Origin: Escherichia phage muut
Length of the DNA stretch: 64,000 nt
Reading direction: 5' to 3' (one strand)
Sequence record: NC_052657.1
Shown: positions 2,942-18,732 of the stretch, piece after piece
Layout of the letters: every line of letters begins with the position of its first letter
Position numbering within the stretch: the first letter of the stretch is position 1
Notes under the pieces: generated by a model
The model's input: the letters and a program-made list of their open reading frames with translations, nothing else
Databases searched by the model: none
Told to the model about the DNA's origin: nothing
Translations under genes and position numbers: made by a program

Positions 2942-3331
2942 TTAATATTCGTTATAATACATTGCTAACTTTTCATCAAAAGCCGATTGACGATCTGCAT
3001 ACTCCCAAAACATTTCCTGATCCTGTTGTTCGTCATCGTCCATCATATTAAATTGCGCAACCTCCTGGTAAGTGATCGCCATATTATAACGATAGGTGAT
3101 CTCTTCTGCGATGTTTTCCGGTAAAGATGATTCTACACTGTCTAACAGCATATTTAACATCATTTCAGCCGCTTTTTCATCATTATCAAAGCAGTAAGCA
3201 GACCATGCCGCATGATGTTTATTTTTCATCTTTGCAATCAAGCCGTTGACTAAAAAAGGCGCTACGTTGTTAACGATACCCTGTAAAGATTGAAATTTTT
3301 CAACGTTAGAAACAGAAACCAGGTTGCGCAT
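2942..3331 (-). CDS. Hypothetical early protein (129 aa, start trimmed)
   Basis: The Met at 3331 follows the promoter/hairpin cassette with ribosome-binding site AAAAAGGTAAA; the track start at 3367 lies inside the hairpin. Confidence 0.5.
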   Translation of the reverse strand: MRNLVSVSNVEKFQSLQGIVNNVAPFLVNGLIAKMKNKHHAAWSAYCFDNDEKAAEMMLNMLLDSVESSLPENIAEEITYRYNMAITYQEVAQFNMMDDDEQQDQEMFWEYADRQSAFDEKLAMYYNEY

Positions 3332-11845: not shown

Positions 11846-12397
11846 TCAGGAAATATCAGATTGTGTTTTTAGATAAACAGCAAGGTCTGTATGCCATTTT
11901 CCTAAAAGATTTTGTCCTTTCCAACAATCCTTGTTTTCAACATTACGATCCCACATCCCCATTTTGATACCATAAATAGAATCATAAGGGCTTGCCTCTA
12001 CGAACTCCTTATCTGCGTAAGCAATAAGTTTATTTTTGAGATCTTCATTTTGTGTGTATTTAAGATACAAACCACGTTCGACAATCTTCTCCCGTAAAGA
12101 AGTCCAGGTATCTTCATCATAATCCTTAACTAATCTACCTAGTCGCTTATAATATGCTTGTTCTTTTTCTCCTGTATATCTTAGATCTCCGGTTAAAATA
12201 GAAGATGCAATATTGTAATCATAAAACAAACATGCTTTTCTCCACATCATATATTGTTCCACACAAGTAAATTCAACATAACTTGTAATAGAATTATTAT
12301 ACTTGGGAGCTAAAGGTTCAATAAAAGATGATAGATACCAGTTGCTAAATTCATCTTTTGCCGAAAAGAAGAACACATACTTATCAGTAATCCGCAT
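11846..12397 (-). CDS. NADAR/YbiA-like (DUF1768) domain protein
   Basis: Motifs FFFSAKDEFSNWYLSSF, ASPYDSIYGIKMG and GQNLLGKWHTDL resemble the YbiA/NADAR family pattern (FF..SNF.., SP.D..WG.G, G.N.LG). Confidence 0.5.
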   Translation of the reverse strand: MRITDKYVFFFSAKDEFSNWYLSSFIEPLAPKYNNSITSYVEFTCVEQYMMWRKACLFYDYNIASSILTGDLRYTGEKEQAYYKRLGRLVKDYDEDTWTSLREKIVERGLYLKYTQNEDLKNKLIAYADKEFVEASPYDSIYGIKMGMWDRNVENKDCWKGQNLLGKWHTDLAVYLKTQSDIS

Positions 12398-13588
12398 TTA
12401 CACCTCCTTACTGTATACTAATTTGCCACCATATTGTGTAATAATTTTTTGAAGATTTTCCAAATCAGAAACACTTACTGTTTCTGTATAACCATCTTTC
12501 AACTCTCTTTTCGTTAAAATACCAGTTTTTAATTTTTTCTTTATAGCTCTTTCAGCAGCCTTACATTGTTTCACTGTGCTAAAATCATATAAACAAATAC
12601 GCTCCATAAAAAACAGATTACGGCTATTTTGAATGTTTAATCGCCTATCACTATCTTTAGCTATACCAAACTTAAGAGCAACTATAATATTATCATCCTT
12701 AACAATATTAATATATAACTGCTGCTGACTATGACCAGCACACATAGGACAACCTCGACAGCGGCTTAATAAATTATGAGCACTCCCTATCTGCTCACCA
12801 TGCACAAGACAAAGATATTTAAACTTACCTATAGAAGAGGGTTTGGTAATCCAATCTACCCAGACATACCCTTTCCCTTCTACTTCCTTTTTTACCCTAT
12901 AGGTGATCTGGTCTTCTGTATACTGATAGTTCCCACAACGACACGGAATGTACCCTCGTTTAAGGTTATTTCCTTCAGAGTAAAATTTACCATCACAAAC
13001 ACCTGCTTGAACATATTCATCATGAGAGCAAACAGGACATTCAACCATCCAGATACTATGCCTGCGTCCTTTACTCCGTGTTCCTGTGTTAGTGAAGATA
13101 GTGCCTTCCTTAAATTTCCCTGTAGAAAAGAAATCTGCAATATGTTGATCGTCGGGCATTGTTAGTGCCTTCCTTGTATTCTCCCCCCTACATTGTGGAC
13201 AACCTCGACCGCCTTTAAATTGATGAATTGCTGTACTTTGCCATCTATTCCCACAATGGCACAACAAATCAAGTTTTGTTTTATTCCCTTTCCATTCTCC
13301 AACGTACCCTAACACCTGATACCCCTTCTTCTGTGCTATCTCTTCCAAGATCGGCAATTCTGTTTCCCATGTTAACGGCTTCTTACCAGAACAGATAGGA
13401 CAACTGTTGCCGCGCTTGAAATTACTAATACTACAAGTCTTCCATTCATGTTCCTGCCTACAGCGTAGAATCATTTTCGTATCACAACCTATAAACGGTT
13501 CAACATATCCTAGGATCTCAATCCCTTTATTATTCGCAATAGGTTGACACTCTTCTTTATATTGTTCCCATGATTTTGGTGCTGCCAT
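12398..13588 (-). CDS. Zinc-ribbon repeat protein with C-terminal T5orf172 (GIY-YIG-like) domain
   Basis: Several CxxC...CxxC pairs (CPICSG, CPQCRG, CPVCSH, CRGCPMCAGH); C-terminal KFGIAKDSDRRLNIQ...DGYTETVSV matches the T5orf172 pattern (KIGxT..RR...). Confidence 0.6.
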   Translation of the reverse strand: MAAPKSWEQYKEECQPIANNKGIEILGYVEPFIGCDTKMILRCRQEHEWKTCSISNFKRGNSCPICSGKKPLTWETELPILEEIAQKKGYQVLGYVGEWKGNKTKLDLLCHCGNRWQSTAIHQFKGGRGCPQCRGENTRKALTMPDDQHIADFFSTGKFKEGTIFTNTGTRSKGRRHSIWMVECPVCSHDEYVQAGVCDGKFYSEGNNLKRGYIPCRCGNYQYTEDQITYRVKKEVEGKGYVWVDWITKPSSIGKFKYLCLVHGEQIGSAHNLLSRCRGCPMCAGHSQQQLYINIVKDDNIIVALKFGIAKDSDRRLNIQNSRNLFFMERICLYDFSTVKQCKAAERAIKKKLKTGILTKRELKDGYTETVSVSDLENLQKIITQYGGKLVYSKEV

Positions 13589-13662
13589 CTACTACTCCTC
13601 TTATTAAATCTGGCATTAATGCAAGAAAACCCGCCGAAGCGGGTTTTTATTTGCTGGCTTAC

Positions 13663-14790
13663 TTAAAACACACTTGCCAAAGTTGCACCATTGGTGATAG
13701 TTGGTTCCAGAACAATACGGAAAGAATCTTCTGGATCATCACTAAACACAACGATTTTACCGCCTGTAATAAGATCTGCTTTCATTTTTGTCGCATTCAA
13801 TGGAATTCGAGCATCGCCTTCATCATCAAAAACCACGTAAGAGCTATTAGCAAGGGCTTCTTTAGAATCTGCATCACTTGGAGATGACAAGTACACGTCC
13901 AGTGTGCACGAACCACCTAAAAAGATTGCAGGTGTGAAGTTATGCCAACTAGATACCCAGCTAACTTTCTGAAGTTTCCCATTAATAACAACACTGCTGA
14001 TATCCCATTTATTACCACCACCTAAAGAAACACCCATCATAGAGATGCATTCTTTAAAGGATAAATCAGGGTAGAAATTAAGTTCTTCTACTATACCTTG
14101 GATCACATCAAAGGACAACTCTAAACTTACATCCCAAAGTCTTTGGAAATTATCAAAGTGTGCTTTGTTATCCAGGTTTTTATCTAAATAGTCCATCATA
14201 GTTTCTAGTGAGATTTTATCATAATTAAAATTATAAAACACACGACTAGGACGATTTAAAAAGAATTCAGAGATAAAGCCACTGTTTTTAGTCAGAATAA
14301 ACAGTTTATTACCACTGCCAGTACCATCTAACAAAGTGAGAAGTGCTTCTTGATCTTGTTTCTTCTCATATACTTTATCAAATTCATCAAAAATAATCAC
14401 TGCTTTGTCTGTGATCTTGCTAATAAGTTCAATGAAATTAGCATCACTGTAGGCTTGAGTAACCATAATAGTTGGAATACCTTCTTCTACAAGGTCACGA
14501 CTAATGAGTTTGGCTAACATAGTTTTACCACTGCCCTTAGTGCCTGTCAGGAGCAAACCTGTATTTTTACCTTGTGCACTCCGGCGATGGAATGTACGAA
14601 TAACGTGATTTGCTCGTTTTTCTGTTTCACCATACAGAACATCCGGTACACCTGTTAGATTACCACGGCTTAAAAAGTAATTGCCAAGGGGATCACGACT
14701 AACAGTATAGAATCCAGGTGGAAGATAGTTAGATTCCACGCCCATATCTTTATTTACACTTACAATATCACCATAAATCGTGTATTTCAT
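13663..14790 (-). CDS. AAA+ ATPase, paralog A
   Basis: Walker A GTKGSGKT, Walker B IIFDEFDK, sensor LTKN, NRPSR; about 45% identical in the ATPase core to 30498..31658. Confidence 0.65.
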   Translation of the reverse strand: MKYTIYGDIVSVNKDMGVESNYLPPGFYTVSRDPLGNYFLSRGNLTGVPDVLYGETEKRANHVIRTFHRRSAQGKNTGLLLTGTKGSGKTMLAKLISRDLVEEGIPTIMVTQAYSDANFIELISKITDKAVIIFDEFDKVYEKKQDQEALLTLLDGTGSGNKLFILTKNSGFISEFFLNRPSRVFYNFNYDKISLETMMDYLDKNLDNKAHFDNFQRLWDVSLELSFDVIQGIVEELNFYPDLSFKECISMMGVSLGGGNKWDISSVVINGKLQKVSWVSSWHNFTPAIFLGGSCTLDVYLSSPSDADSKEALANSSYVVFDDEGDARIPLNATKMKADLITGGKIVVFSDDPEDSFRIVLEPTITNGATLASVF

Positions 14791-14801
14791 TTTAACCCCT
14801 T

Positions 14802-15239
14802 TTATTTTTGTTGAGATGAACGAATTAAATCAGCAGCAAATTCAATCAGATACACTTTTGGTGCAATAATGATTTTTAGCCAATCAAAATTCGAAAAGAA
14901 AATAACAAATCCTAAAAAGAAAAAGAAAGCACAGACAACAAGACCAACAATAGGTAAAGCAGATACTTCACCATAGCGATCTCGTGACCACAGGCATTCT
15001 TTATCTTTAATTGCTTTTACGAGGTTCCGTACAGCAATAAAAGTAATAAACATAAAGCAAATACTAAAAAGTTGCCATAAACCTGCGGATACTGCTTTCC
15101 ACACTAATAATTGATGAATTACTTCTGGAATTTGTTGTTTTCCAAACTCTACAACATCACTCATTGTTTGAATAGTGACGTTAACCATGTTCAGAAGTAC
15201 ATCAGTTGCTTTATCTGCGATTGCGTTTGTTTTACTCAT
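14802..15239 (-). CDS. Hypothetical membrane protein (about 2 TM segments)
   Basis: Hydrophobic stretches LWQLFSICFMFITFIAV and IVGLVVCAFFFFLGFVIFF. Confidence 0.5.
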   Translation of the reverse strand: MSKTNAIADKATDVLLNMVNVTIQTMSDVVEFGKQQIPEVIHQLLVWKAVSAGLWQLFSICFMFITFIAVRNLVKAIKDKECLWSRDRYGEVSALPIVGLVVCAFFFFLGFVIFFSNFDWLKIIIAPKVYLIEFAADLIRSSQQK

Positions 15240-15253
15240 TCTTTATTCCTCAC

Positions 15254-15427
15254 TTACCTTTTAAGGAAACCAATCATAATGAAGAACCACATCCAGGCAG
15301 GAGAGATAATAAAGCCAAAGAAACCGCAAATAACCGCTTTCTTAATCTCTTCCAGACAACCCACCAGGAAAAGAACGAGTGAGACTACAATCCAGATAGC
15401 CATAAATACTGTAACAAAGAAACTCAT
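15254..15427 (-). CDS. Possible small membrane protein (57 aa)
   Basis: Hand-translated MSFFVTVFMAIWIVVSLVLFLVGCLEE...; ribosome-binding site GGGAGAAAGG. Below the track cutoff. Confidence 0.35.
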   Translation of the reverse strand: MSFFVTVFMAIWIVVSLVLFLVGCLEEIKKAVICGFFGFIISPAWMWFFIMIGFLKR

Positions 15428-15447
15428 ACCTTTCTCCCATCTGTATT

Positions 15448-15699
15448 TTAAAATTCAACCACTACTTTATCGAGATGCTCTGCTTCAACTTGATCTAAGG
15501 TTAACACCTCAACTAAACCTTTGTCAATACCTAATTTAATAACATCAACATATTGTCCAAACAGATCCTGAATAGATATCTTGTGTTCGACAACAACCAC
15601 CACTTCATTTCCTTTTGTGAATTCTCTCCATACACGTCCACATTTGAAAATAAAGTCTGCTTCGTCTTCTGTTATCATTTTAGGTTTGATACTTAACAT
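15448..15699 (-). CDS. Hypothetical protein (83 aa)
   Basis: ORF; stop overlaps the start of the downstream gene. Confidence 0.45.
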   Translation of the reverse strand: MLSIKPKMITEDEADFIFKCGRVWREFTKGNEVVVVVEHKISIQDLFGQYVDVIKLGIDKGLVEVLTLDQVEAEHLDKVVVEF

Positions 15700-16250
15700 T
15701 ATAAAACTCCGTACTCCGGCTCAAAATCATATTTTTCACAAATCATATCCCAGCGTTCGTTGCCGAAGCTGCGACCACAAATTGCATCGTAAGCGTAATG
15801 CTCTGCTAACCATTTTACAACAGTGTCTACATCGTTATCAAGTGGTAATCTGAATTCTTTGCCATATCGCATACGAAGAACAAATTCATCCCCTTCTTCA
15901 AACAAGTGCATATGGCTTTTTGCATAAGAAGCCAGGTTGAAAAAAGATACCTCTTCCCAGCATTCTTTTTCCACTGCAATCCCGTGATCAACAACTAAAG
16001 CACCGATAACGCGATACATAATAGGGCTAAACAGTGCGCTTGGGCTAGGCTGCTCTTCAACTATAGACCAACCTGTTCCCTGCCAAATTTCATTTTTGAA
16101 CCATTGTTGCATGTCATTCCCTTTTTCATCTACAATGGATCGGTTACGCATTTCAAACCATTCTCCTTCGCAAAAGTATTTATGTTTAACGCGCTTGCCT
16201 TTTAACATTGCTTCTTTGGCTTCTATCCAAGTCAGATCGGTGTTTTGCAT
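15699..16250 (-). CDS. Hypothetical protein (start trimmed to Met with GAGGAGA ribosome-binding site)
   Basis: N-terminus MQNTDLTWIEAKEAMLKGKRVKH resembles a common small phage domain (DUF2829-like F.EAl.al..GkkvrR); family assignment by recollection only. Confidence 0.5.
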   Translation of the reverse strand: MQNTDLTWIEAKEAMLKGKRVKHKYFCEGEWFEMRNRSIVDEKGNDMQQWFKNEIWQGTGWSIVEEQPSPSALFSPIMYRVIGALVVDHGIAVEKECWEEVSFFNLASYAKSHMHLFEEGDEFVLRMRYGKEFRLPLDNDVDTVVKWLAEHYAYDAICGRSFGNERWDMICEKYDFEPEYGVL

Positions 16251-16369
16251 TCGTTTATCTCCTCTCATTTGTGTATGCATTAAGATTAGCACAATAAAAC
16301 AGTATGTCAATACTTGATCTGAAATTAATTTCTGGTACTCTGTGTGTATCGTAACAAAAGAGGTTAGAT

Positions 16370-16660
16370 ATGAACATCACACTAGCAACTAAGAATATTA
16401 CAGAAACTTTTGATGGTTTTGGCATTATTATTGCTGTTCATGGGCATAACGAAAAATGGTTAGCCTCTTTTGAAGAGGACAAAGAACGCAATGTACGTTT
16501 GAATGCACCAATCAAAGTTTTACACCAGGTAGGTGAGAATAAGAAACAATGGAGATCATACAAAGAGTGGAACATTACGAACGAGTTAATACACAAACTT
16601 GACAAAGTGATAAACATGTTCGACAATGCACCAAGCAGTGCAAAACGTGTTTTACTATAA
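16370..16660 (+). CDS. Hypothetical protein (96 aa); first gene of the plus-strand block
   Basis: ORF with ribosome-binding site AAGAGG; divergent from the minus-strand cassette. Confidence 0.5.
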   Translation: MNITLATKNITETFDGFGIIIAVHGHNEKWLASFEEDKERNVRLNAPIKVLHQVGENKKQWRSYKEWNITNELIHKLDKVINMFDNAPSSAKRVLL

Positions 16661-16671
16661 AGGAGAGTGAT

Positions 16672-17025
16672 ATGAAAATTGTACACGATGAAATTCAATT
16701 TGAAGAGAGTGATCTTCTTGATCTAGATGTGACACTAAGTAAACTGATCTACAATGCACTTTCTGCATATCGTGCAAAAGTGATAGCCACAAACAATGTT
16801 AAAATTCCTAGTGGGTTACTTCGTCGGATGTACCCACACACTAAAGGTGACTATCTACCTTATATGGAAGAACGAGCAGCAGAACACTGGTTAGAAATTC
16901 TTGAAAAAATGGAGTCTTCTTTTAAGGACTCAACTCCACCAGAAGAAGTTAATGAAAAACAGCGGCAAGATCGTTTAGAAGGTCGTATTTTGTTTGCTAA
17001 GTATTTCCATAATCTGTGGATGTAA
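16672..17025 (+). CDS. Hypothetical protein (117 aa)
   Basis: ORF with ribosome-binding site AAGGAGAG. Confidence 0.55.
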   Translation: MKIVHDEIQFEESDLLDLDVTLSKLIYNALSAYRAKVIATNNVKIPSGLLRRMYPHTKGDYLPYMEERAAEHWLEILEKMESSFKDSTPPEEVNEKQRQDRLEGRILFAKYFHNLWM

Positions 17026-17038
17026 TAAGGAGAAAACT

Positions 17039-17206
17039 ATGAGCGAAACCAAGAAACCAATTCCGCGCACTTACCTACACGTTGACCCTGAAATCTTCAA
17101 GGTTTTATTTGCTGAAGCCAAGAAAAGGCAAATTATGGTCAGTGATTTGATGTTAGAAATCATTACTGAAGCAGCAGAGAACATCAAACAAAAAAAGGGT
17201 AAGTGA
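17039..17206 (+). CDS. Hypothetical small protein (55 aa)
   Basis: ATG preceded by TAAGGAGAAAA; the track ORF begins at an upstream TTG. Confidence 0.45.
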   Translation: MSETKKPIPRTYLHVDPEIFKVLFAEAKKRQIMVSDLMLEIITEAAENIKQKKGK

Positions 17207-17257
17207 TCCTCATTCACTTTAGTAGCGCATTAAGCGTGATTTATAAGGAGATTTTTA

Positions 17258-18256
17258 ATGATTAAACATACAAAACCTTTTTTAGGAATAGATTATGACT
17301 TACTAGCAATCACTTCCCTGGTGATTAACGGCAAAACAAAAGAAGTAAAACTACACCATAAGATCATTTATTCTTATTTGTTAAGTTTATCTGGCACATA
17401 CCAAAAGGTAACACCATCTTTGAAAGGTATTGGTGAGCGGTTAGGAGTAGGTACAGATCAGACGGTACGCCGTCATATCAAAGATCTTGTTTCTTTTGGA
17501 TGGTTGAAGATTGAGGAAAGGGCAGGTAGCACAAATGCTTATATTGTCCTTCCTTATGAACAAGAAGCCCAGACACAACAAGAAGCTACTGTTAAAGCTG
17601 TTCCTGATCAGCTTCCCCCTACAGAATGGAAAATGTTTAAAAAATGGTATTCACCATCTGGTAATGAATACACCGCTACACTGCCAGCCGTTGAAATCTA
17701 TAGCTATATAGCTGGATTCAATGAACAAGGGCAAGAATGTTACGCTACTCAAAAAACATTAGCTAATATTGGAATGGTTAGTGATCGTCAGGTACGCAAT
17801 ATTATAAATATGTTTGTTGATATGGGAGTTCTTTCTGTAGAGACACGCCACGGTCAAACATCACTCTATAAAGCATTACCCTTTACAGAGATGAATGTTA
17901 AAAAGCAAAAAAGAGTAAAAGAAATTCCGTACACCGAAAACCAACAATCAAATTGGTGTTTTTATATACAAAAATTGGTTTCTCCGTTTTATACCTGCTT
18001 GAAAGCAGGGATTACGGTAGATATTGATCGTAGAATCAAAGAGCAAAGTAAAAACAGCATGTTTAAGCATTATCTACTTGACAGTTTCAGTGGAGATTAT
18101 GCTACTATTTTCGCTTTGGAGAAAGAAGTTAAAAAATGTTTTAACCGCTCTTTATGCTTAAAAGAGTGGCTACCGGATGGATATACAGAAACATATAATC
18201 TAGAAGATTATGAAAATATAAAAAATTTTGTTAGTGAAAAATTGATTAAGGAGTAA
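17258..18256 (+). CDS. T5orf172 (GIY-YIG-like) domain protein with N-terminal winged-helix-like region
   Basis: C-terminal FYTCLKAGITVDIDRRIKEQ...DGYTETYNLEDYENI parallels the C-terminus of 12398..13588; N-terminus LGVGTDQTVRRHIKDLVSFGWL looks HTH-like. Confidence 0.6.
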   Translation: MIKHTKPFLGIDYDLLAITSLVINGKTKEVKLHHKIIYSYLLSLSGTYQKVTPSLKGIGERLGVGTDQTVRRHIKDLVSFGWLKIEERAGSTNAYIVLPYEQEAQTQQEATVKAVPDQLPPTEWKMFKKWYSPSGNEYTATLPAVEIYSYIAGFNEQGQECYATQKTLANIGMVSDRQVRNIINMFVDMGVLSVETRHGQTSLYKALPFTEMNVKKQKRVKEIPYTENQQSNWCFYIQKLVSPFYTCLKAGITVDIDRRIKEQSKNSMFKHYLLDSFSGDYATIFALEKEVKKCFNRSLCLKEWLPDGYTETYNLEDYENIKNFVSEKLIKE

Positions 18257-18258
18257 AC

Positions 18259-18408
18259 ATGGTTATCTACAAAAATAAGTTCACTGGCTGTCTGCGTAAA
18301 TTTATTGACAAAAAAGGGTATGTTTCTGTTGACAATGGTGTTACGTGGGTACAAAATGGCACTTCAGAACAACTGATCAAGGCTTTACCTTACTATGAGG
18401 AGGTTTAA
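18259..18408 (+). CDS. Possible small protein (49 aa)
   Basis: Hand-translated; ribosome-binding site TAAGGAG. Below the track cutoff. Confidence 0.3.
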   Translation: MVIYKNKFTGCLRKFIDKKGYVSVDNGVTWVQNGTSEQLIKALPYYEEV

Positions 18409-18732
18409 ATGTCCAACAATCTGTTTAGCGTGTCAATTGCACCGCGTGTTAATATTCGCTGTCAGTTTGTTAACTTACCAGGTGTGACACATATCACTTT
18501 AGAGTATGATCCTCGTTCACAAGAGAACCCAATTACAGGCAAGATTGATTCAGCCTACGGCGACTTTCTGATGGATCACCAAGCAATCTTATGTTGTGTG
18601 CAACGCTTACAAGCAGGGTCTTTATACATCTTCAAGAAATCTGTGTTCCAGGAGATTGCTCAAGCGGTTGAGAGTGGTATGGAAACACTTAACAACATGA
18701 TCGAAGCCGCTAACAAAAAGGAGGTTTTATGA
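18409..18732 (+). CDS. Hypothetical protein (107 aa)
   Basis: ORF with ribosome-binding site GAGGAGG. Confidence 0.55.
   Translation: MSNNLFSVSIAPRVNIRCQFVNLPGVTHITLEYDPRSQENPITGKIDSAYGDFLMDHQAILCCVQRLQAGSLYIFKKSVFQEIAQAVESGMETLNNMIEAANKKEVL

What the first reader, a model, noticed from the sequence alone, without database searches (positions are those of the whole stretch)
11846..18256. Two T5orf172 (GIY-YIG-like) domain proteins, one fused to zinc-ribbon repeats
12398..13588 and 17258..18256 share a C-terminal block (KxGIT...DRR...DGYTET) typical of the T5orf172 domain. One has at least four CxxC zinc-ribbon pairs at its N-terminus, the other an HTH-like N-terminus. These may be homing-endonuclease-like mobile genes or DNA-binding regulators. 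They flank the divergent transcription switch near 16.3 kb.
Basis: partly seen in the sequence, partly recalled or inferred. Interest (0 to 1): 0.5.

Follow-up and report, generated by a model that had tools for sequence, protein, structure and literature searches.

The report
Two GIY-YIG-like nucleases in coliphage muut
Both genes are real and share a nuclease-like end domain: one is a resident zinc-finger "homing-endonuclease-type" gene, and the other is a patchwork gene, already proposed in 2023 to cut parasitic satellite elements of E. coli, whose two DNA-binding parts are near-exact copies of satellite replication genes.

Summary
The window is Escherichia phage muut. Gene 1 (12398..13588, minus strand; muut_145) has four zinc modules plus a C-terminal T5orf172/GIY-YIG-like domain. 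It sits beside the ATPase gene in 67 related phage records and varies by whole finger units. It belongs to the known CapR/T5orf172 homing-endonuclease-like family.

Gene 2 (17258..18256, plus strand; muut_154) has two winged-helix domains plus the same nuclease-like domain. With a 55-aa ORF it forms a clean 1221-bp insertion that most relatives lack. Barth, Dunham and Seed (2023) already named this protein as a candidate Odn-like anti-satellite nuclease.

I reproduced their evidence. Residues 1-123 match (122 of 123) the replication-initiator-like protein of an integrated E. coli satellite, and the DNA is up to 100% identical in 154 of 5426 genomes.

Two points appear to be additions:
- The second winged-helix domain is 98.9% identical in DNA to the initiator-like gene of a different 7.7-kb integrative element (225 genomes).
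- The small upstream ORF is also a satellite gene copy.

The parts
12398..13588 (-). Gene 1 (muut_145, 396 aa): four Zn modules plus a C-terminal T5orf172/GIY-YIG-like domain; a CapR-family homing-endonuclease-like gene
   Evidence: ORF. Pfam CapR homology domain, 3 stretches, 124 bits; T5orf172 18.4 bits, below cutoff. PHROG 681 'endonuclease', 2e-82. Exact match to QHR65942.1 / YP_009985760.1.
13379..13531 (-). Gene 1 Zn module 1 (aa 20-70; ligands C43/H47...C63/C66), the unit gained or lost between sibling phages
   Evidence: Module HMMs cross-hit modules 1, 2 and 4. EmilieFrey lacks one unit and PaulScherrer has one extra.
13181..13333 (-). Gene 1 Zn module 2 (aa 86-136; C110/C112...C130/C133)
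   Evidence: Pfam CapR best stretch at aa 81-133
12929..13057 (-). Gene 1 Zn module 3 (aa 178-220; CxxC...CxC, the motif described for CapR), a different type from modules 1, 2 and 4
   Evidence: CxxC...CxC motif described in PMC8096241
12731..12874 (-). Gene 1 Zn module 4 (aa 239-286; C260/H263...C280/C283)
12401..12733 (-). Gene 1 T5orf172/GIY-YIG-like domain (aa 286-396); invariant Y292, K306, G308, I309, R316, E346, G366, E369, T370
   Evidence: Invariant columns in 56 homologs down to 27% identity. AF2 model with pLDDT 90.8.
17026..17037 (+). Left copy of the duplicated TAAGGAG-AAAC ribosome-binding motif at the insertion junction
   Evidence: Alignments with arall, inny and PaulScherrer. 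Satellite homology starts here.
17033..18253 (+). 1221-bp cassette absent from arall and most relatives. The left ~600 bp is satellite-derived and the right ~620 bp holds wHTH2 plus the nuclease domain. The breakpoints are ambiguous within the repeated TAAGGAG.
17039..17206 (+). Small 55-aa ORF, a copy of the small ORF that precedes the initiator-like gene in satellites; function unknown
   Evidence: The exact protein is on record from E. coli contigs of chromosomal size. DNA 17027-17262 is 100% identical in satellites; 216 of 5426 genomes have a match. 46% aa identity to the RM9131 small ORF. No profile hit.
17201..17257 (+). Leader and ribosome-binding site shared by phage and satellites; candidate 5' homology arm for module exchange
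17258..18256 (+). Gene 2 (muut_154, 332 aa): wHTH1 + linker + wHTH2 + T5orf172/GIY-YIG-like domain; published Odn-like candidate
   Evidence: ORF. HTH_36 twice, MUG113 22.5 bits. Exact match to QHR65951.1 / YP_009985769.1. PMC10448857 section 24.
17258..17557 (+). wHTH1 (aa 1-100), the 'A' allele, identical to the N-terminus of the RM9131-type satellite initiator-like protein; differs completely in inny and Mt1B1_P17
17558..17626 (+). Conserved linker (...QTQQEATVKAVPDQLPPTE) shared by the inny and muut nucleases and by several satellite initiator-like alleles (less conserved in Mt1B1_P17); satellite homology ends exactly after PPTE; candidate 3' homology arm
17627..17890 (+). wHTH2 (aa 124-211), common to the muut, inny and Mt1B1_P17 nucleases; 98.9% nt identity to the initiator-like gene ('D' allele) of a 7.7-kb element at the thiM TPP riboswitch
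17945..18253 (+). Gene 2 T5orf172/GIY-YIG-like domain (aa 230-332): Y236, K249, G251, I252, R259, E288, G308, E311, T312
18247..18258 (+). Right copy of TAAGGAG-AAAC; the last codons and stop codon of gene 2 supply the ribosome-binding site of the downstream 49-aa gene (18259..18408)

Best explanation
The window is phage muut. It carries two site-specific nucleases built on one plan: a DNA-binding array at the N-terminus and a T5orf172 (GIY-YIG superfamily) catalytic domain at the C-terminus.

Gene 1 belongs to the CapR-zinc-finger/T5orf172 homing-endonuclease-like family. It has become a fixed resident next to the ATPase gene across the subfamily. Its target specificity is probably tuned by gain, loss and divergence of whole zinc-finger units.

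Gene 2 is a chimera. Its first winged-helix domain and linker, together with the upstream small ORF and leader, were copied from the replication module of integrated E. coli satellites. Its second winged-helix domain matches the initiator-like gene of a second kind of integrative element. The C-terminus is a phage homing-endonuclease-type nuclease domain.

By analogy with ICP1 Odn, the copied initiator domains most likely guide the nuclease to the satellite's iteron-containing origin, which is then cut. This would stop the satellite from replicating at the phage's expense. The conserved leader and linker would let the N-terminal module be swapped by recombination with whichever satellite is met.

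Shown here: the sequence relationships, the domain fold, the conserved residues, the insertion boundaries and the sporadic distribution.

Inferred: nuclease activity, the target sites, that the chromosomal elements parasitise this phage, and the benefit to the phage.
For: Identity of the window: exact protein matches to muut_154 and muut_145. Muut is missing from the phage collection while its sibling phages are present.

Nuclease domain:
- PHROG 681 and MUG113 at threshold.
- Family HMM at 52 bits.
- Nine invariant positions shared by both genes.
- AF2 model with pLDDT 90.1 and pTM 0.81, topology beta-beta-alpha-beta-alpha.

Gene 1:
- Three CapR-domain stretches.
- ICP1 'putative homing endonucleases' at 31% identity, E = 1e-26.
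- Syntenic in 67 relatives and in phAPEC8.
- Length classes differ by whole ~70-aa fingers.

Gene 2:
- Found at this locus in only 4 of 78 matching phage records (3 phages: inny, Mt1B1_P17, BI-EHEC), plus muut itself.
- Clean 1221-bp indel at a duplicated ribosome-binding site.
- The N-terminal 343 nt is up to 100% identical in 154 of 5426 E. coli genomes and has no match in 50,697 phage records.
- Residues 1-123 match 122 of 123 positions of the satellite protein, with the break exactly after PPTE.
- The host element splits a LysR-family gene and carries a serine recombinase, capsid, tape-measure and baseplate genes and a tyrosine integrase. It is listed in Barth's Table S6.
- The Mt1B1_P17 N-terminus matches a different satellite allele.
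- wHTH2 matches a further allele at 98.9% nt identity in 225 genomes.
- Iteron-like arrays lie upstream of the satellite initiator-like genes and are absent from the phage window.
- Identity to the cross-genus Mt1B1_P17 falls from 97% inside the gene to 79% and then to nothing downstream.

Precedent: Odn cuts the PLE origin in an iteron-dependent way and the E180A mutant is inactive (PMC8263062). The same hypothesis was published for Inny, Muut and Mt1B1_P17 (PMC10448857).
Against: - No experiment exists for either protein, and I found no follow-up paper.
- Pfam T5orf172 is below its gathering score for both genes.
- Foldseek finds nothing significant, and a PDB sequence profile finds no nuclease.
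- Which residues are catalytic rests on motif correspondence, not on a superposition.
- Iteron type does not track the initiator allele cleanly in the six satellites compared. The TACCCCTATCAA array occurs with allele A in 2 of 2 cases but also with allele B in 2 of 3. The target site is therefore not identified.
- The D-type element has no annotated capsid genes, so it may not be a satellite at all.
- Nothing shows that muut or its relatives induce or are parasitised by these elements.
- Gene 1 is not sporadic, which weakens an 'active homing' reading for it.
- Only 64 kb of the ~146-kb genome was checked for self-targets.
Confidence: 0.6

Rival explanations
1. Gene 2 is an ordinary free-standing homing endonuclease that spreads between phages by cutting the empty intergenic site. 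The similarity to satellite genes only reflects a shared pool of winged-helix modules.
For: Precise intergenic insertion that preserves the downstream ribosome-binding site. Sporadic distribution. Identity gradient around the gene between two genera.
Against: The DNA-binding modules are 99-100% identical in nucleotides to chromosomal initiator-like genes, which implies recent exchange and the same DNA specificity as those proteins. Three phages carry three different N-terminal alleles (two matched to satellite alleles here; all three according to the paper) on one nuclease backbone. No iteron-like sequence was found in the window.
Confidence: 0.15
2. Gene 2 acts without cutting. It binds satellite origins (or the phage's own DNA) as a competitor or repressor, and the T5orf172 domain serves as a DNA-binding or dimerisation module.
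For: T5orf172 was originally predicted to be a DNA-binding domain (cited in PMC8096241). CapR, from the same wider family, is a pure repressor. The profile scores are borderline.
Against: The Tyr, Arg and Glu positions expected for a GIY-YIG site are invariant across both families. The homologous domain in Odn is catalytically required.
Confidence: 0.1
3. Gene 1 is no longer a mobile nuclease but a domesticated regulator or other housekeeping factor of the phage, in the way CapR is for PLE.
For: It is present at the same locus in 67 related phage records and next to the ATPase gene in phAPEC8. It is not present/absent like a typical homing gene. The CapR-type fingers bind promoter DNA in the characterised case.
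Against: It keeps the full nuclease-like domain with invariant putative catalytic residues over 56 homologs down to 27% identity; per Netter et al., CapR matches only the N-terminal region of the ICP1 homologs. The finger array varies between sibling phages while the rest is nearly invariant. That pattern is more typical of changing target specificity than of a fixed regulatory site.
Confidence: 0.15
4. Gene 2 is a phage replication-initiation or helicase-loading protein, as the PHROG names of its N-terminal hits suggest.
For: PHROG hits to 'replication initiation protein', 'O-like' and 'DnaD-like helicase loader' families, E = 1e-13 to 1e-17.
Against: Those hits cover only the winged-helix parts. 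The gene is absent from nearly all close relatives, so it is not essential. It lacks the C-terminal domain shared by the satellite initiator-like proteins.
Confidence: 0.03

Closest known systems
Coliphage Odn-like proteins of Inny, Muut and Mt1B1_P17 (Barth, Dunham & Seed 2023, NAR Genom Bioinform, PMC10448857, Fig. 8)
   Same: Gene 2 is the Muut protein itself (exact match). The paper reports the same architecture, the same variable N-terminal module that mirrors satellite RepA alleles, and the same class of satellites. RM9131 is in their Table S6.
   Different: Nothing differs in kind. Two points may be additions. (1) The second winged-helix domain, which the paper says has no detectable homology to the cognate satellite repA genes, is 98.9% identical in DNA to the initiator-like gene of a separate 7.7-kb element at the thiM riboswitch. 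For strain 503025 their table lists a different locus. (2) The small upstream ORF and leader are also satellite copies. In Pfam the domains score as HTH_36 rather than RepA_N.
ICP1 Odn (Gp88), origin-directed nuclease (Barth et al. 2021, eLife, PMC8263062)
   Same: An N-terminal DNA-binding domain related to a satellite replication initiator is fused to a C-terminal T5orf172 domain. Odn cuts the satellite origin at the iterons and needs a conserved Glu.
   Different: Odn has one RepA_N domain that is 42% identical to PLE RepA. Gene 2 has two winged-helix domains, each about 99% identical to a chromosomal counterpart. The phage lineage and host differ. Activity is shown for Odn and not for gene 2.
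CapR / T5orf172 putative homing endonucleases of ICP1 (gp165, gp174) and PLE CapR (Netter et al. 2021, PMC8096241; Barth 2023)
   Same: Gene 1 has repeated CapR-type zinc fingers ('beads on a string') followed by T5orf172. It gains and loses repeat units between close relatives, as ICP1 gp174 does. tblastn links it to the ICP1 genes (E = 1e-26).
   Different: Gene 1 is fixed at one locus across a phage subfamily instead of being sporadic. [quoted passage not shown]
GIY-YIG free-standing homing endonucleases of T4 (I-TevI, Seg and Mob proteins)
   Different: Sequence similarity is very low. The second beta-strand motif is K-x-G-I rather than Y-I-G. The DNA-binding modules are different.

Membership tests
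T5orf172 / MUG113 (Pfam PF10544 / PF13455; GIY-YIG clan) | Profile match at or above the curated gathering score | tested here: inconclusive
   Gene 1: T5orf172 18.4 bits against 20 (fails). Gene 2: MUG113 22.5 against 22.3 (just passes) and T5orf172 15.3 against 20 (fails). One distant gene 1 homolog carries a precomputed PF10544 hit (P0195).
T5orf172 / MUG113 (Pfam PF10544 / PF13455; GIY-YIG clan) | GIY-YIG alpha/beta core fold (beta-beta-alpha-beta-alpha) | tested here: met
T5orf172 / MUG113 (Pfam PF10544 / PF13455; GIY-YIG clan) | Conserved Tyr (strand 1), x-x-G (strand 2), Arg (helix 1) and catalytic Glu (helix 2) | tested here: met
   Invariant Y292, K306/G308, R316 and E346 in 56 gene 1 homologs. 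The same columns are Y236, K249/G251, R259 and E288 in gene 2. Their correspondence to I-TevI R27/E75 and Odn E180 is by motif order, not by superposition.
T5orf172 / MUG113 (Pfam PF10544 / PF13455; GIY-YIG clan) | Metal-dependent endonuclease activity | not testable with these tools
   Requires purified protein and mutant controls.
Free-standing homing endonuclease gene | Sporadic presence or absence at one locus among close relatives | tested here: met
   This row is for gene 2. It is present in 4 of 78 matching phage records (3 phages: inny, Mt1B1_P17, BI-EHEC) plus muut, with a clean 1221-bp indel relative to arall.
Free-standing homing endonuclease gene | Sporadic presence or absence at one locus among close relatives (gene 1) | tested here: not met
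   Gene 1 is present between the NADAR and ATPase genes in 67 related phage records, and next to the ATPase gene in phAPEC8. It varies in finger number, not in presence.
Free-standing homing endonuclease gene | Cleaves the gene-less allele and is over-inherited in crosses | not testable with these tools
   Needs cleavage assays and mixed infections. The identity gradient around gene 2 is only suggestive.
Odn-like origin-directed anti-satellite nuclease | DNA-binding domain homologous to a satellite replication initiator, fused to a T5orf172 nuclease domain | tested here: met
   Residues 1-123 match 122 of 123 positions of the RM9131 element's 222-aa protein. Residues 124-209 are ~99% identical to the 239-aa protein of the thiM-site element. 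The chromosomal proteins lack the nuclease domain. A blastn search of window 17627-18256 found no E. coli match beyond window 17889, that is, none to the nuclease-domain DNA.
Odn-like origin-directed anti-satellite nuclease | The homologous initiator lies in an element with satellite hallmarks (integrase, attachment-site duplication, some but not all virion genes) | tested here: met
   This holds for the A-type element: a split LysR-family gene, serine recombinase, capsid, tape-measure (E = 7e-55) and baseplate genes, and a tyrosine integrase. It is listed as a satellite by Barth. The D-type element has an integrase and a duplicated riboswitch but no annotated virion genes.
Odn-like origin-directed anti-satellite nuclease | Iterons in the satellite origin that match the specificity of the shared DNA-binding domain | tested here: inconclusive
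   Iteron-like arrays exist and differ between elements. The array-to-allele mapping is not one-to-one in six satellites. Genome counts are similar: 104 against 112.
Odn-like origin-directed anti-satellite nuclease | Cuts the satellite origin and rescues the phage from satellite interference | not testable with these tools
   No experimental report was found.
CapR homology domain proteins (Pfam PF21817) | Profile match above cutoff, with paired Cys/His zinc ligands | tested here: met
   Gene 1: 124.1 bits against 24.2, in three stretches. Ligand pairs are listed. Module 3 has the CxxC...CxC spacing reported for CapR.

The most novel reading that the evidence does not exclude
muut_154 may be a two-headed anti-parasite nuclease. 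Each of its two winged-helix domains is a near-exact copy of the replication-initiator DNA-binding domain of a different family of E. coli integrative elements: the capsid-encoding satellites (allele A) and a compact 7.7-kb element at the thiM riboswitch (allele D).

One protein would then target two kinds of parasite. Alternatively the D head is the ancestral specificity and the exchangeable A head was added later.

The co-captured small ORF, which also survives alone in phages such as PaulScherrer, may be a second satellite-derived anti-satellite factor.

The shared leader and linker may act as homology arms that let the phage re-arm by recombining with whichever satellite it meets.
Probability: 0.35. 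Interest if true: 0.6.

Novelty: already known. Interest (0 to 1): 0.35.

Why it matters
Anti-satellite nucleases built by fusing a parasite's own origin-binding domain to a homing-endonuclease domain have been shown experimentally only in the Vibrio phage ICP1 and its PLE satellites.

The coliphage case is a published prediction in a far more tractable host. The near-100% nucleotide identity between the phage modules and chromosomal elements points to exchange that is recent and ongoing.

The present analysis gives exact module boundaries, candidate iteron targets, a putative catalytic residue to mutate (E288), and named strains that carry cognate elements (for example E. coli ATCC 8739 and RM9131). 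The prediction could therefore be tested directly.

If the second domain and the small ORF are also functional, the locus would show how a phage stacks and swaps specificities against several parasites.

Gene 1 by itself is an ordinary member of a known family.

Tried and rejected
- A homolog search with only the 104-aa C-terminal fragment returned nothing because of the tool's word-index limit. Full-length queries worked.
- Whole-chain Foldseek of the gene 1 model gave no significant hit (best E = 0.02, unrelated). This is expected for a beads-on-a-string model.
- A profile search of PDB sequences found no nuclease, only a weak zinc-ribbon match to bL31.
- I suspected that the small ORF is a ribbon-helix-helix regulator. 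Pfam, PHROGs and a PDB profile search gave no support. The only hint is a weak 'transcriptional regulator' PHROG hit for the PaulScherrer allele at E = 0.004. I therefore dropped the label.
- I first read the second iteron array as allele-specific. Comparing six satellites showed that this does not hold cleanly, so I report it as unresolved.
- The promoter and terminator scan around 16.2-18.5 kb found fewer promoter-like sites than shuffled controls, so it says nothing.
- A weak LAGLIDADG hit on the 96-aa ORF at 16370..16660 (E = 0.018, below cutoff) was dismissed.
- Several fetched loci were not exported to the scripting machine, so the junction work used the built-in aligner.

Full report
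**What is there**

The two ORFs exist at the stated coordinates: 12398..13588 on the minus strand (396 aa) and 17258..18256 on the plus strand (332 aa). Exact-sequence look-ups identify them as muut_145 (QHR65942.1; RefSeq 'endonuclease'; UniProt 'CapR homology domain-containing protein') and muut_154 (QHR65951.1 / YP_009985769.1). Both come from Escherichia phage muut, 146,307 bp.

Muut (MN850573 / NC_052657) is missing from the phage collection although its sibling phages are present. That explains why the nearest hit is phage inny, at 96% identity. The phage belongs to Justusliebigvirus, subfamily Stephanstirmvirinae.

**The shared C-terminal domain**

- The two C-termini align at 33% identity over 83 residues, E = 3e-9.
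- Pfam support is thin. T5orf172 scores 18.4 and 15.3 bits against a cutoff of 20. The related MUG113 model scores 22.5 against 22.3 for gene 2 only.
- Other evidence is firmer. PHROG 681 'endonuclease' scores 2e-82 for gene 1 and 2e-18 for the C-terminus of gene 2.
- An HMM built from the C-terminal domains of 56 gene 1 relatives scores gene 2 at 52 bits, E = 1.6e-15. It hits nothing else in the window.
- Nine positions are invariant across those 56 relatives, which go down to 27% identity: Y292, K306, G308, I309, R316, E346, G366, E369 and T370. The same columns are conserved in gene 2: Y236, K249, G251, I252, R259, E288, G308, E311 and T312.
- An AlphaFold model of gene 2 residues 223-332 is confident (pLDDT 90.1, pTM 0.81) and has the topology beta-beta-alpha-beta-alpha...alpha.
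- Foldseek and a PDB sequence profile were not significant.

I conclude that both proteins carry a T5orf172-type member of the GIY-YIG fold and keep the Tyr, Arg and Glu expected for catalysis. The residue correspondence rests on motif order and activity is untested.

**Gene 1**

The N-terminal 285 residues contain four zinc modules. Modules 1, 2 and 4 are homologous to one another and match Pfam's CapR homology domain (124 bits, three stretches). Module 3 has the CxxC...CxC arrangement described for CapR.

The gene lies between a NADAR-domain gene and an AAA ATPase gene in 67 related phage records. A 57%-identical homolog sits next to the ATPase gene in phAPEC8. So it is a resident gene, not a sporadic insert.

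Homologs fall into length classes of about 327, 396, 466 and 550 aa. Among sibling phages the difference is the loss (EmilieFrey) or gain (PaulScherrer) of one whole ~70-aa finger unit, while modules 3-4 and the nuclease domain are almost invariant.

tblastn links the family to the 'putative homing endonucleases' of ICP1 at 31% identity, E = 1e-26. This is the architecture and the repeat dynamics that Barth et al. 2023 describe for CapR/T5orf172 genes.

**Gene 2 and its cassette**

Most relatives match the region only up to window position 17041 and again from 18248. In arall the stop codon of the 117-aa gene is followed directly by the ribosome-binding site and start of the 49-aa gene. In muut, 1221 bp lie between two copies of TAAGGAG-AAAC, at 17026 and 18247. 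The end of gene 2 itself supplies the ribosome-binding site of the downstream gene.

The cassette holds a 55-aa ORF (17039..17206) and gene 2. The locus has several states:
- empty (arall);
- a different small ORF alone (PaulScherrer, VEcB);
- the small ORF plus the nuclease (inny, muut);
- a different upstream gene plus the nuclease (Mt1B1_P17, a different genus).

The three nuclease proteins are nearly identical from residue ~110 onward but unrelated in the first ~105 residues.

**Link to the literature**

Barth, Dunham and Seed (2023) single out exactly these proteins of Inny, Muut and Mt1B1_P17 as Odn-like. Each has an N-terminal 'RepA_N' domain matching the RepA of a different putative E. 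coli satellite. They list 224 such satellites, and they propose anti-satellite nucleases that evolve by domain swapping (PMC10448857).

Odn itself (ICP1 Gp88) cuts the PLE origin in an iteron-dependent way, and the E180A mutant is inactive (PMC8263062). I found no experimental follow-up for the coliphage proteins.

**Independent reproduction**

- The first 343 nt of gene 2 match 154 of 5426 complete E. coli genomes at up to 100% identity, always on chromosomes. They match nothing among 50,697 phage records.
- The homology spans window 17201-17626.
- At protein level, residues 1-123 match 122 of 123 positions of a 222-aa 'helix-turn-helix domain-containing protein'. The match ends exactly after ...QLPPTE.
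- In strain RM9131 that gene lies in a ~13.8-kb element that splits a LysR-family gene. The element carries a serine recombinase, major capsid, tape-measure (PHROG E = 7e-55) and baseplate genes, and a tyrosine integrase. It is in Barth's Table S6.
- The Mt1B1_P17 N-terminus matches a different satellite allele. All the satellite proteins share a C-terminal domain that the phage proteins lack.

**Points that appear to go beyond the paper**

First, the small ORF and leader are satellite sequence. Window 17027-17262 is 100% identical to chromosomal elements, 216 genomes have a match, and the homology starts exactly at the left insertion junction. The exact 55-aa protein is on record from E. coli contigs of chromosomal size. 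PaulScherrer's lone small ORF is likewise 100% identical over 166 nt to chromosomal elements; 292 genomes have a match. No sampled genome has muut's small-ORF allele and its initiator allele side by side, so the phage cassette is itself a recombinant.

Second, the paper's Figure 8B legend says the second RepA_N domain has no detectable homology to the cognate satellite repA genes. However, window 17629-17889 matches 225 E. coli genomes at up to 98.9% identity. The counterpart is a 239-aa protein (WP_000594465.1) whose residues 33-118 match gene 2 residues 124-209. It continues with the same linker and ends in DDFDIPF like the other satellite proteins.

That protein sits in a ~7.7-kb element bounded by duplicated TPP riboswitches upstream of thiM. 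The element has a tyrosine integrase, an HNH endonuclease, a serine recombinase and no annotated capsid genes. It is identical in layout in three unrelated strains. PaulScherrer's small-ORF allele lies directly upstream of the gene in this element. For strain 503025, Barth's table lists a different locus.

So gene 2 reads as wHTH(A) + linker + wHTH(D) + nuclease. A plausible ancestor is small ORF(D) + wHTH(D)-nuclease.

**Target sites**

The satellites have iteron-like arrays in a ~2-kb ORF-free stretch upstream of the small ORFs:
- a shared array, GGTAGnTCA...TGAnCTA, at 22-23-bp spacing;
- variable arrays: TACCCCTATCAA at ~24 bp, ACAGAAtTCTGTTA at ~23 bp, and a CCTAGGAA-type array;
- in the D-type element, five tandem copies of AAATAAGCCACTT.

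None of these occurs in the 64-kb phage window above chance.

Genome counts for the TACCCCTATCAA array (104) and the A allele (112) are similar, and the top hits overlap. In six satellites compared directly, however, the array also occurs with allele B. The target of gene 2 is therefore inferred, not identified.

**Mobility**

Between muut and the cross-genus Mt1B1_P17, identity is 97% in wHTH2 and 95% in the nuclease domain. It then falls to 88%, 84% and 79% in the three downstream genes and is lost after that. This fits recent lateral transfer centred on the nuclease gene, as the paper also infers.

**Verdict**

Gene 1 is an ordinary, already annotated member of the CapR/T5orf172 homing-endonuclease-like family. 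Gene 2 is the published Muut Odn-like candidate. Both are therefore already known in kind, and for gene 2 specifically.

The satellite origin of the second winged-helix domain and of the small ORF, together with the precise module boundaries, are modest additions that make the published hypothesis easier to test. Function remains unproven for both genes.

Noticed in passing
window 17627-17890; L012 8906-9625 (E. coli 503025, NZ_CP025892); also L014 and L015: The second winged-helix domain of gene 2 is 98.9% identical in DNA to a 239-aa initiator-like gene found in 225 of 5426 E. coli genomes. The gene lies in a ~7.7-kb element bounded by duplicated TPP riboswitches upstream of thiM (tyrosine integrase, HNH endonuclease, serine recombinase, no capsid genes). 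The 2023 paper describes this domain as lacking detectable homology to the cognate satellite repA genes.
   Followed up: yes
window 17039-17206; L004 1542-1727 (PaulScherrer): The small ORF upstream of gene 2 is an exact copy of the small ORF that precedes the initiator-like gene in E. coli satellites. A different allele survives alone at the same phage locus in PaulScherrer and VEcB and is also 100% identical (over 166 nt) to chromosomal elements. Its function is unknown and no profile hit was found.
   Followed up: partly
L005 14078-14346; L007 1439-1582; L011 about 3000-3200; L012 8188-8264: There are iteron-like tandem arrays next to an AT-rich tract in the ORF-free stretch upstream of the satellite replication genes. 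One array is shared and others differ between elements, but they do not track the initiator allele one-to-one in six satellites.
   Followed up: partly
window 18407-18718 (ORF 18409..18732): A 107-aa DUF7247 gene just downstream of the cassette is present in muut and Mt1B1_P17 but absent from inny, arall and PaulScherrer (a ~312-bp indel). It is a second variable slot beside the nuclease.
   Followed up: partly
window 11846-12397: A NADAR-domain protein (Pfam, 125 bits; annotated in relatives as a YbiA-like N-glycosidase) lies directly downstream of gene 1. The finding's start coordinate belongs to this unrelated gene.
   Followed up: no
window 13663-14790: An AAA-type ATPase (PHROG 2376, E = 8e-108; variously annotated as ATPase, FtsH-like protease or Zn metalloprotease) is the conserved upstream neighbour of gene 1, including in phAPEC8.
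   Followed up: no
phage records MG065639, MG065645, MG065656, MG065689: Four records named 'Campylobacter phage' (host C. jejuni, ~146.4 kb) are ~97% identical to this E. coli phage region. They are probably mislabelled or are contaminant coliphages.
   Followed up: no
window 15699-16310: The 203-aa ORF matches two separate PHROG families end to end (N-terminal phrog_22208/3474, C-terminal phrog_11295). It may be a fusion, or it may have a start codon later than the TTG listed.
   Followed up: no
one search hit list: Proteins of ~200-223 aa homologous to the first winged-helix domain of gene 2 (63-74% identity) occur in chromosomes of Klebsiella, Enterobacter, Citrobacter, Cronobacter, Leclercia and Kluyvera. 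This replication-module family therefore extends well beyond E. coli.
   Followed up: no
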